The translations under genes were made by a program, and so were the position numbers. Source: Isurus oxyrinchus (lineage: Eukaryota). From it: a DNA stretch of 64,000 nt. The notes beneath the pieces were generated by a model. The model did no database searches. It was not told the origin of the DNA and saw only the letters and a program-made list of their open reading frames with translations. The stretch is from contig JANJGN010000049.1 in NCBI GenBank assembly GCA_026770705.1, forward strand, positions 4,278,001-4,342,000, read 5' to 3'. Of this stretch, positions 11,553 to 58,029 are shown one piece after another; within the stretch, counting starts at the first letter, position 1, and every line of letters starts with the position of its first letter.

Positions 11553-11672
11553 GCAAGTATTTAAAGTAAGCCAGGCACAAAGCCTCATCAGCAGATAAAA
11601 GACAAATCACTCAAACAAGTCCTTAAAACTCCCATTGTTTTTCTTTGCCGAGAAACAATTGTTAAATCCCTT

Positions 11673-11919
11673 ACAAAAACAGAATTACCTGGAAAAACTC
11701 AGCAGGTCTGGCAGCATCGGCGGAGAAGAAAAGAGTTGACATTTCGAGTCCTCATGACCCTTCGACAGAACTTCGACAGTTCTGTCGAAGGGTCATGAGG
11801 ACTCGAAACGTCAACTCTTTTCTTCTCCGCCGATGCTGCCAGACCTGCTGAGTTTTTCCAGGTAATTCTGTTTTTGTTTTGGATTTCCAGCATCTGCAGT
11901 TTTTTTGTTTTTATCTCTG
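11673..11919. mobile_element. Foldback mini-element from the Penelope terminal repeat; 100-bp inverted arms; 13-bp TSD
   Basis: Arms 11673-11772 and 11778-11877, 1 mismatch, 5-nt loop. TSD TGTTAAATCCCTT at 11660-11672 and 11920-11932. Near-identical to the 3' end of the element at 33964. Confidence 0.93.
11778..11816 (+). ncRNA. Minimal type-I hammerhead-ribozyme-like motif (variant core CUGUCGA)
   Basis: AGTT-CTGTCGA-A-GGGTC/ATGAG/GACTC-GAAACGTC-AACT: stem I, stem II, GAAA, palindromic ACGT, GUC triplet. Activity untested. Confidence 0.6.
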
Positions 11920-12072
11920 TGTTAAATCCCTTTGCGGCAGAATTAAATGAAACATTGTAAACAGAGAATCCACCAATGCAAAGTTTCGGTTAACACATTA
12001 ATGTCTAAAATAAACAGAATTAAGAGACAATGAAGCAAATCCAACAGCACAGAATGAAGGCATGTTTCTTAC

Positions 12073-12120
12073 TTGCAGTCACCGTAACCATGGTCCCTTG
12101 TCCCCAGTATCCAGGATAGT
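12073..12120 (-). CDS. JH segment, IgM type (YPGYWGQGTMVTVTA)
   Basis: WGQG motif; donor A|GTAAGA at 12073/12072; flanked by a 23-RSS. Confidence 0.96.
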
Positions 12121-12159
12121 CACAGTGTTACATTCGCTGGTCTGGGTCACACAATAACC
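12121..12159 (+). other. J recombination signal (23-bp spacer)
   Basis: CACAGTG + 23 nt + ACAATAACC. Confidence 0.95.
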
Positions 12160-53200: not shown

Positions 53201-53989
53201 TCTTTATTTGTGGATGTGGTCTTATTTGGAAGGAATCAAAATTAACGTCAATCATTGGCTTGGGGTGAGGCTCATTTGGTGTCACTTCATCTCTGTATCT
53301 AAAGCCATGAACACTGAGGACAAATCTGCATCTCTTATTCCCTGGGCCCCCGGATGTATATTCAATTGTGAGCAAGTAACACATCATTGTAAATACAGAG
53401 CTATTGCAAACAATTTTACATCTTCTTATCAATAATACAACTTACCGTATATAGCCACGTCAACACTTGTTTTAGCACCATACCAGCTATACGATATCTT
53501 ATTAGTAAATGTTAATAACACCTTCTTACAGTTATGTCAAGACAAAAGCTGCCCTCCAAAACATATCTTCTGCTCTACGGATATGGTTCATCAACTGAAC
53601 CAAATCATAGATCGTTTAGTTTTAAGATGAGGTGTCATGTTAAGTTACACTTGCTGAATTCACCTTTTTTGTTTATCCCTTTGAAACTGACAAAGAATCC
53701 CTCATTTGCACAGTTCAAATAAAACAAATATAATTAATTGAACCTAGGCTTCTCGGTACCTTAAAGTAATTAAAGCAAAGCACCGGTTCCTGCTCCCAGC
53801 CTACAATCTATATAGCCTCAGTAGCAGAAACTCAAATTGAGCTGTAAAGATAACATAAATATTATTTCATATCAACAGAAAACCCTATAATATTCGTAGT
53901 ATTATTACTACGAATTATCATTAAAGGCCATTCCATTTGTTCTTACTGTTCTTGTCCTGTGAATGATTAATTCATCTCCTACCACCCTC

Positions 53990-54540
53990 TATCTGCTCCC
54001 CGTAGGCCAGATGTTTCCCTCCTTTTCATATAATTATCCAATCCTATTTTGAATGACTCAATTGTCACGGCCTCCACGACATCCTCACGCAGTCCATTCA
54101 AGGTCCTATCCACTCCCTGCATGAGCAAAAGCATTTCCTCGTGTTGCTAATGCTTATTTTCCCAATTAACGTAAATCTGTGCCCCTTGGTTCTAAATCCT
54201 TCCACCAATTGGACCGTTTTCTACTTTCTACTCTGTCCAGACCCATTTAGATTTTGAATACATCTATAAATTCTGCCTCAACCTTTTCTTCTCTATGGAA
54301 AACACTCCCAATTCCTCTAATCTACCAGTTTAACTGAAGGTCCCCATCCCTGGATCCATTCTCGTGAATATATCCTATTCTCTCACTGATACGTTCACAC
54401 TTTTCCTAAAGAGTGGTGCTCAGAACTGGACGCAAATGCTCATGTTGAGACTTTAACAGTGTTCGAAAAACTATTTGCTTTTGAAATCTGTGCCCCAACT
54501 TATAAAGCCTCAGATACCATATGCTTTATTAACCAGCCTG
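53990..54540 (-). mobile_element. Degenerate CR1 3' fragment
   Basis: aaatctgtgcccctt, ggtgctcagaactggacgca motifs; related pieces at ~55340-55740 and ~57085-57380. Confidence 0.65.
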
Positions 54541-54983
54541 TCAGCACTGACAACAGAGACAGCGCATCGTGTTATGTAAACAGAACATGGACTTGTGCAG
54601 CATTCACTGTGATCTCCTCTAGCTTAATATAAACATGGCAGGGTCAACTCAAGGAATAACCGAGGGAAAGCCTCGTGTAATGCAAACAGACACATGTTCC
54701 AGTTTAGGAAAGGTAGACATTGTACAAGGCATTAATAATTGGGACATGAAGTTTTGTCATATTAGCTGAGACATGGTTCCGTGCAGTCATAACTGAGTGT
54801 CTCAGAACAGAAAGAGGGCCTTGGTTGAGTATGCTAACAGCAGAGATTGGGCCGAATGCAGAAATAAGTGAGGCATAGCCTCCTCTAATATAATCAATGA
54901 CATGACCGAGTGTTATTTAAACAGGCACGGGGTCTAGTTTGATATGAGAGGAGACAGTGCCAATGCAGCAAGCATTGAGAAAT

Positions 54984-55212
54984 CCAAAACAAAAACAGAA
55001 TTACCTGGAAAAACTCAGCAGGTCTGGCAGCATCGGCGGAGAAGAAAAGAGTTGACGTTTCGAGTCTTCATGACCCTTCGACAGAACTCATGAAGACTCG
55101 AAACGTCAACTCTTTTCTTCTCCGCCGATGCTGCCAGACCTGCTGAGTTTTTCCAGGTAATTCTGTTTTTGTTTTGGATTTCCAGCATCCGCAGTTCTCT
55201 TTGTTTTTATTT
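54984..55212. mobile_element. Foldback Penelope-terminal mini-element; ~95-bp arms, 14-nt loop; 14-bp TSD
   Basis: Arms ~54979-55073 and 55088-55182. TSD AAGCATTGAGAAAT at 54970-54983 and 55213-55226. Complete hammerhead-like motif on the minus strand at 55049-55089. Confidence 0.93.
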
Positions 55213-58029
55213 AAGCATTGAGAAATGCCTGCTCACGCAATTTGAACAATCACGGTTTCGGTTCCCTCCGCTGGACAAACCTTGCTATTGCAGATGCTGT
55301 GAAAATGCTGACTTAATTTACTGTATCTGATATCAATCATAGAATTGAAGAATTCTTACAGAAAAGTAAGAGGCCATTTTTCTGACCCGTGCTAACCTTC
55401 TAAAGGAGCAATTGACCTAGTTCCACTCTTTTCCCTCTAGTCGAGCATTTTTTCCCTTTTCCGAAAAAGATGCACTTTATTTTTGAAAGCATCAATTGAA
55501 TCTGCCTCCACCACACACTCAGCCTGTCCACTCCAAATCCTAACCACTCACTGCGCGAAACAAATTTATTTTTAAATGTCGCCGTTGCTTCTTTTACTGA
55601 TTATCTTAAATCTGTGCCCTCTTGTTCTCGAATCTTCCACCATTGGGAACATTTTCTCCCTGCCTACTCTGTCCGGACCGTCATGATTTAGGACAACTTT
55701 AACAAATCTCCTTTCCAATAGGGTATGGCAAGAGAAGAGAACGCTAATATGCTTGTGTTGTGGATACAAAATAATAACATATATGGTGAGTGAAAATGAG
55801 ATCCAGTGAGGGCATCACAACTGATGCTTGGCGGTCTATAAGTGCGGTAAATATGTACTTTTGTTTCATCTTCTATGAAACAGGAAACAGTTCGCATATA
55901 CATTTGATCCGCAAATTAGACCATAGGACTTTCAGTGGCAAATTGCTACATGTATTACGTTAGCACCAGCATGGTTGATGAAGAGCTGTGGAAGTTCAGC
56001 TGAATCACTCCACGGCCCAGATAAGATATATCCGAGGATTTTTATGGAAATAAGCGAGAAATCTGCAGGTTCTCAGTCATAAATCTGTGAAAAATGATTG
56101 AATTCTGCAAAGGCGCCTGGCGAACAGATAAAATAAATGCAGCATTCATTGTTCTTTGGTAAAATGTTCGCAAAAGTGAGTCAGGAAATCACAGACCATG
56201 AGTTACCCCTCGTAAACCAATATCAACGGAATGTTTATGGGGCATGTGGAGAGAAGGAGAACCTTTCATTGTAGCCAGTAAGTATCCATGAAGGGAAGGA
56301 CTTGCTTATCTAGCTGACTGATCACTTTGAACATGAGCAAAACGAGCTTCATGGGGCAAGATAGACAGTGGATGTGATGCATTTGGATTCCTGCAGGTTT
56401 TCTAAACAGTTCCTCTGGAAAGGTTGGGAACCTGGAAGAAATATCACCACAATCAGAGGGAGGACAGCAAGGGAATCGGAATTAGTTGACTGATAGATTC
56501 CAGATTGTAATGATACAGGGATTGTATTCGGACAGGAAGGATATTAACGCTGGAATCCCACATTGTTCTGTTTCATTCCTCATTAGTTTAAGATGATAAT
56601 AAATGAAGCCAGAAGATCAATGCTTAAAACTGCAGCGGGGGAAAAGGCCAATGAAGATCATAGGTGCACATCTGATCAGGGTAAGCTATGTGCGGAATTA
56701 AATACGTGAAAAATAGGCAGAAAGGCAGTGGATAACATTCCTCGGAGAGGAATTCAAAATTTGCCACATGGAGATAAGGAATTAAGGAAGGAAATATCAC
56801 ATATGCAAAAAATTAACCTGTATGGAAAAAGAAAAATAAACTGTGGTTTCTGACTGACATGATTTGATTATCTTTCAACAATAAGCAAAGCAAACGAGGC
56901 CCTGGGACGGACACAGATTCCCTCTCTCCACGCTTCCTGACGCCTTCCCCGGCATAGTGCCAGCCTTGCCGCCTTCCAGCCTGCCTCTAATGGACCTGGA
57001 AAGTTCAGGTTAATATTCCAATGGGTGTTCGATCTATGGATCAGACTCTCGAAAGCATGGAAGCCGTTAACATTGATTCTTACAGGAAAACAAGAATAGG
57101 AGCAGGAGTAGGCGGAATGGCCGTCGATCTGCTCTGTCATTCTGAACATGGTCTTCAACTCCATGTTTCCGCCGTTTGCCCATATCCCTAAAATCCCCGA
57201 CGCACTGTAACTCTGCCTATCCCGAACTAAAGTGGATGGAGAATCCAGAGCTCTCTGAGGTAGAGAATTCCAAAGGTTCACAACACTTTGAGTGAAGTAA
57301 TTTCTCCTCATCTCAGTGCAAAATGTTCGGCCCCTTATCCAGAGACCGTTCCCCCATGTTTTAGATTGTCTGACCAGGCTGTACAGATGTGAAAATAAAT
57401 TCTCTCCCATATATTGTTTGTGTTTGATATGTATAATTTCCCCACTAGGACAAAGAATGTGAAAAATTGAGAACATTATCTTGGAGACATAAGTGGTAAA
57501 AAACAAAAGCTTTAACAAGATCCAATGTGTCGGGTTGAACATTGACAATGTATTGCAGAGGAATTACAGAATACAGCAAAGTTTAAATACTCCCATTGTG
57601 AATGAGATTAGAGTCTGATAACTGCTCCAAATGTGCACATTGCATTCTGAAATAACTCCCAACAACAAGCTCCAGCCAATACCTCCAATGGCGAATGATG
57701 AGAGAGTTCATGTACAGGGTCAGGTGGTAAAAGAGCGAACGCTGCTGCAAAATTCAATCCGACACAGTATTGTTCCATATTCATAATTCATCAGTATGTT
57801 TTCAAATGCAACCATGCAGTAACTGAACTTCTCTGAGGCTGGCAAACAGCAGTGCCTGTAGTGGCGGTGAGTTGCCAGCAGAGGGTGGGGTTGTATCACT
57901 TTAATCATAAGACAATGAAACGGGTTTGAGACGAGGCTTGGACCCTTTTAATTCATTCACGCGGTACTCTTTGCCATTGAGTAAGTCCACTTATATAAAA
58001 TTCTTCAACTGAAACACTTGCATCATGTA

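What the first reader, a model, noticed from the sequence alone, without database searches (positions are those of the whole stretch)
11660..55226. Family of young foldback mini-elements built from the Penelope terminal repeat, with uniform 13-14 bp TSDs
Seen: three insertions (11673-11919, 30736-30942, 54984-55212) each consist of an inverted partial copy plus a forward copy of the ~140-bp 3' terminus of the Penelope element at 33964. They are near-identical to one another, have no coding sequence and have clean AT-rich 13-14 bp TSDs. In all three the inverted arm stops at the same point (..cgacagaa(c)), the 5' edge of the hammerhead motif, while its outer end varies (55-100 bp arms). Knowledge: Penelope-like elements carry hammerheads in their pseudo-LTRs and often insert with inverted terminal segments. 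Inference: a short, defined ribozyme-containing RNA is copied twice per insertion, once from each nicked strand, by the partner RT/GIY-YIG. This would be a retrozyme-like non-autonomous system that plants cruciform-forming palindromes; three young copies in 64 kb suggests a high genomic copy number.
Basis: partly seen in the sequence, partly recalled or inferred. Interest (0 to 1): 0.7.

Follow-up and report, generated by a model that had tools for sequence, protein, structure and literature searches.

The report
Start-bounded two-armed Penelope mini-insertions
These short DNA hairpins are the smallest insertions of a very abundant Penelope-type jumping gene, each made anew from two copies of its end joined head to head; their shared stop point likely marks where the element's RNA begins rather than where its ribozyme cuts, so they could serve as a genome-wide record of how this poorly understood class inserts.

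Summary
The three foldbacks and their 13/14/14-bp TSDs are real, but they are not a separate retrozyme-like family. They are the shortest class of an endonuclease-bearing Penelope-like element with 121,433 exact terminus hits. Its longer insertions share the published layout: inverted truncated arm, one-sided ~35-nt tail, TSD. Junctions differ between copies (32 spacers in 50). The shared stop is real: 36-38% of arms that reach it end there. It lies 35 nt upstream of the hammerhead cut (4,590 symmetric palindromes versus 553) and 29-32 nt below a conserved TATA box. It belongs to the insertion, not the single arm: 0 of 34 insertions pair a stop there with a longer arm, against 21.5 expected. 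Target sites are dyad-symmetric (n=121). Best reading: a dimeric enzyme nicks both strands and copies one RNA twice, from internal start sites near the mRNA 5' end up to the transcription start. The start site is inferred, not mapped, and a cap-signature test was inconclusive. This scan noted the same stubs before in five findings on other genomes.

The parts
11660..11672 (.). left TSD of copy 1 (13 bp; right copy 11920-11932)
   Evidence: exact duplication
11673..11773 (-). copy 1 inverted arm, element positions 0 to about +102, no tail
11774..11777 (.). copy 1 junction insert, 4 nt; the same junction recurs at L010, L202 and L140
11778..11919 (+). copy 1 forward arm from +1 through the tail; minimal hammerhead motif at 11778-11816, predicted cut between 11812 and 11813
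   Evidence: motif read from sequence against the description in PMC4209133
11920..11932 (.). right TSD of copy 1
30722..30735 (.). left TSD of copy 2 (14 bp; right copy 30943-30956)
30736..30788 (-). copy 2 inverted arm, +3 to about +55
30787..30942 (+). copy 2 forward arm from 0 through the tail; 2-nt overlap with the inverted arm; 16-bp duplication
33950..33963 (.). TSD of the truncated Penelope-like element (other copy 35820-35833), inside a 54-bp satellite
33964..35819 (-). 5'-truncated, frameshifted endonuclease-bearing Penelope-like element: 3' part of RT, CxxxxCxxC linker, GIY-YIG, 3' terminus
34128..34134 (-). TATA-like box 32 nt upstream of +1 (34102), inside a block conserved across subfamilies
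54970..54983 (.). left TSD of copy 3 (14 bp; right copy 55213-55226)
54984..55088 (-). copy 3 inverted arm, +1 to about +105
55088..55212 (+). copy 3 forward arm, +16 through the tail; hammerhead core incomplete; 1-nt overlap at the junction

Best explanation
The foldbacks are the shortest ordinary insertions of an endonuclease-bearing Penelope-like retrotransposon, likely made when its dimeric enzyme copies the first ~140 nt of the element's own mRNA twice and runs off at the inferred transcription start. Shown: each insertion has a tail-bearing arm ending at about +124..+139 (mostly +134..+139), a head-to-head arm ending mostly at +95..+109, a 13-15-bp TSD and a dyad-symmetric target. Arm ends pile up at -14..+5, and the two arms are coupled in length and in variant. 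Inferred steps: (1) an endonuclease dimer nicks both strands about 14 nt apart, leaving two 3' primers. (2) Each primer starts reverse transcription at one of two internal start sites about 35 nt apart on the same RNA. (3) The terminus occurs twice in a full-length transcript. Priming at the 3' copy gives long, randomly truncated insertions; priming at the 5' copy gives at most ~140 nt before the RNA ends at the TATA-defined start, like retroviral strong-stop DNA. (4) The two cDNA 3' ends are joined bluntly, by 1-2-nt microhomology or with short templated inserts. The hammerhead lies in the copied stretch as a passenger.
For: Layout at all lengths: 51 of 91 genome-wide sampled copies are two-armed, with arms from ~60 nt to 2.4 kb; same picture in 102 arms from the first 2.9 Mb of contig 1. 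Boundary: 37 of 103 and 29 of 77 arms at risk end in -14..+5 (0.36 and 0.38 per 20 nt), against 0-0.10 in upstream 20-nt bins and 0.03-0.06 in the bin holding the ribozyme cut. Symmetric palindromes genome-wide: 4,590 at the boundary, 553 around the cut, 93 at -37..-50. One template end: 0 of 34 insertions with one arm past the boundary have a partner stopping at it (shuffled mean 21.5, minimum 10 in 20,000). Arms share the non-CpG +22 variant (2 discordant of 108 pairs, 28.6 expected), while CpG sites +28, +32 and +33 are discordant as expected, so the arms were not homogenised later. Promoter fit: TATA-to-+1 distance is 32 nt in 90 and 29-30 nt in 44 of 136 copies, although the spacer sequence differs between subfamilies; older subfamilies have a pyrimidine-A initiator at +1. 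No stable RNA structure upstream (-2.3 kcal/mol). Long template: in L002 the cDNA runs +103 to -1, jumps to +1013 inside the ORF and again ends at 0. In L166 it runs +137 to +1, then jumps to +272. In L181 and L188 ORF-bearing arms start at +1 and +2. Two-strand cleavage: half-site consensus (G/T)T(C/T)TGTT outside both TSD edges, cross-validated p 6e-12 and 5e-18, n=121. In vitro, an anole PLE cuts and extends both strands, starts internally at two sites 111-118 nt into its ORF, is predicted to be a dimer and does not need ribozyme cleavage (PMC11167929).
Against: No RNA 5' end was mapped: only assembled contigs were available, and they showed no start and no splice joint. Cap test inconclusive: C follows a cDNA end in 11 of 22 inserts against 2 of 15 controls (p=0.035), but G does so in 15 of 22. 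Several full-length copies start elsewhere (-203, -54, +55, +65, +80), so read-through RNA or strand transfer is also needed. The mRNA-template evidence rests on four copies. Long-long arm pairs are also length-correlated (rho 0.60), so a coupled stall of both enzymes cannot be excluded. Concordance at +22 could reflect subfamilies active at different times. The boundary window was chosen after seeing the data, and six older-subfamily loci were dropped because the reference diverges above +1. The upstream block also reads as branch point plus pyrimidine tract plus AG, and in D. virilis the intron ends at the 5' side of helix I (PMC4209133). D. virilis Penelope has a TATA-less internal promoter (PMC2377424).
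Confidence: 0.52

Rival explanations
1. Same two-primer mechanism and same start site, but the template is a short transcript from the promoter-bearing 3' repeat of any of the many truncated copies, mobilised in trans (SINE-like, with no fixed master).
For: Explains the boundary and the arm coupling equally well. Tens of thousands of truncated copies retain the TATA block (about 40% of sampled arms pass it). Repeats alone can mobilise in trans in A. vaga (PMC3846280 passages).
Against: L002, L166, L181 and L188 need ORF sequence downstream of the tail on an RNA whose 5' end is at about +1. The foldbacks themselves lack the TATA block. In vitro the protein needed 172 nt of the ORF region (PMC11167929).
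Confidence: 0.2
2. The RNA end at about +1 is not the transcription start. It comes from other processing (a splice-acceptor-linked or nuclease cut), or from a coupled stall of both reverse transcriptases at the 5' foot of the hammerhead.
For: The upstream block also fits a 3' splice site in older subfamilies. The D. virilis intron ends at helix I (PMC4209133). Long arms are length-coupled too. A good match to the target half-site lies at +3, rank 9 among both strands of 374 nt.
Against: No upstream exon is joined at the boundary in 50 junctions. The young subfamily has lost the pyrimidine tract yet shows the strongest boundary. A structural stall is expected at the 3' foot of a helix, and upstream folding is negligible. 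An arm-by-arm stall is rejected (0 of 34).
Confidence: 0.15
3. Snap-back: one cDNA folds on itself and is copied back, or antisense RNA self-primes (as proposed in PMC3846280).
For: Some pairs end at the same random point (-1039/-1039, -84/-84, -30/-30); both arms share variants.
Against: Each arm often holds sequence the other lacks: the inverted arm reaches further 5' (copy 3; +43/-1294; +57/-603) while only the forward arm has the tail. Inverted arms end at a fixed second start site (106 of 140 at +95..+109). Zero-loop palindromes are common (6 of 50). Targets are symmetric.
Confidence: 0.07
4. One reading: a dedicated ribozyme-processed or circular small RNA (retrozyme-like) spreads as its own non-autonomous family.
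For: Very high copy number, a defined boundary and a minimal hammerhead motif inside the unit; animal non-LTR retrozymes derive from PLE repeats (bioRxiv 10.64898/2026.07.22.740005).
Against: Ends avoid the cut site (2 of 227; 553 versus 4,590). Units are head-to-head, not head-to-tail arrays. No copy re-enters at the tail after the cut site, as a circle would give, in 91 copies plus 102 arms. 32 different junction spacers in 50. Continuum with ORF-bearing copies.
Confidence: 0.04
5. A DNA-transposon MITE or foldback element with terminal inverted repeats.
For: Long inverted repeat, no coding sequence, TSD.
Against: No fixed termini, asymmetric ends, variable 12-17-bp TSDs, 94-98% identity to the terminus of an RT plus GIY-YIG element.
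Confidence: 0.01

Closest known systems
Insertion units of endonuclease-bearing Penelope-like elements with an inverted 5'-truncated copy and a one-sided 30-40-bp tail (PMC8557442; PMC3846280; PMC2377424 Fig. 1C legend)
   Same: Head-to-head inverted truncated terminus, tail on one side only, TSD (8-10 bp in A. vaga), RT plus C-terminal GIY-YIG partner, hammerhead in the repeat. Paired minimal hammerheads 100-700 bp apart on opposite strands were already noted and ascribed to truncated PLEs (PMC4209133).
   Different: In the passages I read, no class bounded at one point, no arm-pair statistics and no dyad target consensus are reported. The inverted arm was explained by self-priming or endonuclease resolution, not by two primers on one RNA.
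Poseidon from Anolis carolinensis (PAc), in vitro (PMC11167929)
   Same: Cuts and extends both strands; two internal RT start sites define the tail; hammerhead cleavage dispensable; predicted dimer.
   Different: PAc's ORF begins inside the hammerhead and its start sites are AC-rich; here the long frame begins after the tail, the start sites are U-rich and the linker has a Neptune/Nematis-type CxxxxCxxC finger. The text read does not address inverted arms or 5' run-off.
Non-LTR retrozymes of animals (bioRxiv 10.64898/2026.07.22.740005)
   Same: Non-coding, derived from a PLE repeat, type I hammerhead motif, high copy number.
   Different: Retrozymes are head-to-tail tandem units linked to ribozyme-cut circular RNA; these are head-to-head, and their ends avoid the cut site.
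Retroviral minus-strand strong-stop DNA and L1 twin priming (both recalled, no call)
   Same: Short cDNA primed near the RNA 5' end that runs off; inversion from a second target primer.
   Different: Primed by target nicks, not tRNA, and integrated. Unlike L1 twin priming, both arms cover the same RNA stretch.

Membership tests
Endonuclease-bearing Penelope-like element (insertion unit) | Single ORF with RT and C-terminal GIY-YIG between terminal repeats in the parent element | tested here: met
   L154: 926-aa open frame, RVT_1 E=3e-6 and GIY-YIG E=0.002 (both under Pfam's curated cut-off), flanked by two 340-bp repeats 96% alike
Endonuclease-bearing Penelope-like element (insertion unit) | Inverted 5'-truncated copy adjoining the 5' end | tested here: met
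   51 of 91 sampled copies
Endonuclease-bearing Penelope-like element (insertion unit) | 30-40-bp tail on one end only | tested here: met
   forward arms end mostly +134..+139; 106 of 140 inverted arms end +95..+109
Endonuclease-bearing Penelope-like element (insertion unit) | Target site duplication of variable length | tested here: met
   124 of 140 short two-arm copies; 100 are 13-15 bp
Endonuclease-bearing Penelope-like element (insertion unit) | Minimal type I hammerhead motif in the repeat | tested here: inconclusive
   core boxes, 5-bp helix II and 4-bp helix I readable at +1..+39; no Rfam hit; not the lowest-energy fold; cleavage not testable
Neptune/Nematis clades of PLE | CX2-5CxxC finger between RT and endonuclease (absent in Penelope/Poseidon; PMC8557442) | tested here: met
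   C-x4-C-x2-C in the L154 frame and the window element
Neptune/Nematis clades of PLE | Placement in an RT tree | not tested
   no reference set fetched
Non-LTR retrozyme | Head-to-tail tandem units, each with a hammerhead | tested here: not met
   27 of 38 short copies are head-to-head and 11 are single (direct-repeat copies were counted apart)
Non-LTR retrozyme | Unit boundaries set by ribozyme cleavage | tested here: not met
   2 of 227 ends at +33..+39; 553 versus 4,590 palindromes
Non-LTR retrozyme | Circular or monomer RNA in vivo | not testable with these tools
   only assembled contigs served
MITE / foldback DNA transposon | Fixed terminal inverted repeats and fixed short TSD | tested here: not met
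   ends asymmetric and variable; TSD 8-17 bp
Non-autonomous family copied from a master foldback | Shared junction and shared ends among copies | tested here: not met
   32 distinct spacers in 50 junctions, commonest 6; outer ends vary

The most novel reading that the evidence does not exclude
Penelope-like elements use a two-primer, one-RNA reaction with a retrovirus-like strong-stop step. A dimeric RT-endonuclease opens a symmetric site with a 14-nt stagger, both target ends prime internally near the capped 5' end of the mRNA, and failure to transfer strands leaves about 20,000 integrated strong-stop palindromes in this genome. Successful transfer would be what rebuilds the promoter-bearing pseudo-LTR, so tail, inverted arm and pseudo-LTR would come from one mechanism.
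Probability: 0.3. Interest if true: 0.72.

Novelty: new variant of a known kind. Interest (0 to 1): 0.45.

Why it matters
How Penelope-like elements, the closest relatives of telomerase RT, produce their inverted arms, tails and pseudo-LTRs is still open; the one in vitro study leaves the later steps unvalidated (PMC11167929). This genome holds tens of thousands of young products whose arm ends, variants and target sites can be counted. The counts point to two-strand priming on one RNA and a fixed template end, which gives exact predictions for that in vitro system. The family also seeds the genome with roughly one 110-250-bp near-perfect palindrome per 200-250 kb (estimate), which score as miRNA-like hairpins in RNA scans (below family thresholds). 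As an object it is retrotransposon debris of a published layout, not a new ribozyme-driven element.

Tried and rejected
A DNA search of the genome with the terminus returned nothing because very common words are skipped; short patterns were used instead. The Rfam scan gave only sub-threshold miRNA hairpin matches. RNA contigs of 4 runs, whose RNA status is itself a guess, showed no start site and no splice joint from the donor-like site at +84/+85: uninformative. DNA contigs of 4 runs on copy 1 did not bridge the flanks, so presence/absence could not be typed. Cap-G signature: inconclusive. Apparent jumps at +1 in L059 and L146 were rejected as alignment artefacts of an older subfamily whose spacer differs; for the same reason L059, L064, L092, L094, L114 and L146 were dropped from the end counts. 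L021, L022, L035 and L181 were also left out of the pair test because their arms cross from the 5' repeat into the ORF. A cluster of ends at -294 was a chaining artefact at a low-complexity tract, only partly fixed. Re-cutting of the palindrome by the element's own endonuclease was considered (half-site match at +3), but there is no partner half-site 14 nt upstream and single-arm copies stop at the same place. A genome-wide count of full-length copies and their 5' ends was not obtained, so that point rests on about 15 loci already held. Literature: 6 searches listed no paper on such stubs in sharks or on a strong-stop step in PLEs. Repbase and Dfam could not be searched, and no supplements were read; Fig. 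S2 of PMC11167929 maps genomic copy ends and may bear on the 5' boundary.

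
Full report
Observation. All three insertions are present at the stated places, with exact TSDs of 13, 14 and 14 bp. Each is an inverted arm plus a forward arm of the terminus of the element at 33964-35819. 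I number the terminus with +1 at window 11778 (34102 on the minus strand) and 0 for the base before; the predicted hammerhead cut is between +35 and +36 and the tail ends near +139. The inverted arms end inwardly at 0, +3 and +1, and outwardly at about +102, +55 and +105. The forward arms start at +1, 0 and +16. The neighbouring element is a truncated, frameshifted insertion with its own 14-bp TSD, so it is a sibling, not the source.

The parent. The window lies in a 4.98-Gb genome; that it is a shark is my inference from size and from earlier scan notes, not a result. A 26-mer of the terminus has 121,433 exact hits. Locus L154 is a natural full-length copy: two 340-bp repeats around a 926-aa frame with RT and GIY-YIG matches and a C-x4-C-x2-C linker. 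By PMC8557442 (passages and section 10 read) that linker marks Neptune/Nematis rather than Penelope/Poseidon; no tree was built.

Two samples not selected for 5' structure. A genome-wide sample used the tail motif plus an arbitrary downstream 5-mer: 61 of 61 hits and 30 of 70 hits. Of these 91 copies, 51 are two-armed, 32 single and 8 have a direct repeat upstream. A second sample took the first 100 listed hits and gave 102 arms. The two-arm layout occurs at every length up to 2.8 kb. That layout, with a 30-40-bp tail on one side, is the published PLE insertion unit (PMC8557442; PMC3846280 passages; PMC2377424 passages), and paired minimal hammerheads on opposite strands were noted in PMC4209133 (parts 1-2 of 4 read). 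From tag frequencies I estimate 77,000-88,000 tail-bearing copies and 20,000-24,000 short foldbacks.

The shared stop is real but is not the ribozyme cut. After dropping six older-subfamily loci whose ends cannot be called, 37 of 103 and 29 of 77 arms at risk end in -14..+5, against 0-0.10 per 20 nt upstream and 0.03-0.06 in the bin with the cut. Only 2 of 227 ends lie at +33..+39, against 39 at -2..+4. Genome-wide, symmetric palindromes number 4,590 at the boundary, 553 around the cut and 93 at -37..-50 (exact patterns, so lower bounds). The first 50 listed boundary junctions hold 32 different spacers; 47 of 100 ends are at 0 or +1; 28 are blunt or share 1-2 nt, and 22 carry short inserts, several of them templated from the arms. 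Each foldback is therefore made anew rather than copied from a master.

Two primers, one RNA. Inverted arms end outwardly at +95..+109 in 106 of 140 short two-arm copies, about 35 nt short of the forward arm (this set includes junction-selected loci). That matches the two internal RT start sites shown in vitro for the anole element (PMC11167929, parts 1-2 of 4 read). Each arm often has sequence the other lacks, which excludes simple snap-back. Reconstructed targets (n=121) show the same half-site, (G/T)T(C/T)TGTT, reading outward from both TSD edges; a matrix from one side predicts the other (p 6e-12 and 5e-18). Both arms share the non-CpG variant at +22 (16 both, 2 discordant of 108 pairs, 28.6 expected), while CpG decay is independent between arms. 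Among 84 two-arm insertions from both samples, none of the 34 with one arm past the boundary has a partner stopping at it; shuffling gives 21.5 on average and never fewer than 10. The boundary thus behaves like the physical end of a shared template, not like an obstacle that each enzyme meets separately. A coupled stall remains possible because long arms are correlated too.

What sets the end. A TATA-like box lies 32 nt above +1 in 90 of 136 copies and 29-30 nt above it in 44. It sits inside a block conserved between subfamilies whose spacer sequence differs, and older subfamilies have a pyrimidine-A initiator at +1 (the usual TATA-start spacing and initiator consensus are recalled). Short copies of older subfamilies also end near +1 (about 8 incidental cases, judged by eye). 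The upstream RNA is unstructured. PLE transcription is known to start in the upstream repeat (PMC8557442 section 10; PMC6765202 passages). Four copies tie this end to an ORF-bearing RNA: L002 and L166 jump from about +1 into the ORF's first kilobase, and L002 stops again at 0; L181 and L188 have ORF-bearing arms that begin at +1 and +2. Against this: no RNA start could be mapped, the cap test was inconclusive, several full-length copies begin elsewhere, and the same upstream block can be read as a 3' splice site.

Mechanism and verdict. Most likely a dimer nicks both strands about 14 nt apart, and both ends prime on one RNA at the two start sites. When that happens at the 5' copy of the terminus, both cDNAs run off at the transcription start and are joined head to head; the junction pattern resembles polymerase-theta end joining (recalled, untested). 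I put the two-primer, made-anew part at about 0.85, a transcription-start boundary at about 0.7, and the full reading with the mRNA as template at 0.52. The retrozyme reading fails both defining features I could test (definition from bioRxiv 10.64898/2026.07.22.740005, part 1 of 5 and passages read). Six literature searches listed no paper on this bounded class; Repbase and Dfam were out of reach. Five earlier scan notes on other genomes describe the same stubs and reach the same family verdict. I had fixed my reading before seeing them; the target-symmetry test came afterwards and was run on my own loci. Verdict: a new variant of a known insertion layout, interest 0.45.

Noticed in passing
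window 31193-40444: About 9 kb of a degenerate 54-bp (2x27) satellite, interrupted by the Penelope-like insertion with a clean 14-bp TSD; a related 27-bp-period repeat lies near 26975-27460 and 48900-50190.
   Followed up: no
window 9701-9873, 30080-30163, 63945-63992: Older, 75-80% identical relatives of the same terminus; 9701-9873 appears to be a decayed two-arm stub.
   Followed up: partly
L154:2057-2080: In the young subfamily the spacer between the TATA box and +1 consists of two short repeats of sequence from within the hammerhead region (+22..+31 and +34..+48); older subfamilies have an unrelated pyrimidine-rich spacer. It might misfold the ribozyme in read-through transcripts only.
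   Followed up: partly
L154:2167-2254: A splice-donor-like site at +84/+85 and a plausible acceptor just before the first ATG of the long frame would define an ~86-nt 5' UTR intron containing both RT start sites, like the 5' UTR introns of D. virilis Penelope and Chlamys-3. No joint was seen in RNA contigs.
   Followed up: partly
L154:2170-2215: Both RT start regions contain near-perfect copies of the target half-site motif on the sense strand (+89, +95, +122, +126 rank in the top 8 of the scan), hinting that RNA-target pairing or self-recognition shapes site choice.
   Followed up: partly
L003, L200, L204, L217: Some boundary junctions re-copy the last 6-11 nt of the arm one or more times, like slippage at a template end.
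   Followed up: partly
window 46929-47060, 58054-58677, 60470-60970, 60940-61527: Another dispersed repeat forms long inverted pairs around 58-61 kb, and a decayed LINE-like RT frame lies at 60940-61527 on the minus strand (family not tested).
   Followed up: no
window 11736-11815, 30753-30824, 55000-55161: The foldbacks score as plant miRNA precursors below family thresholds: a likely source of false miRNA annotation.
   Followed up: no
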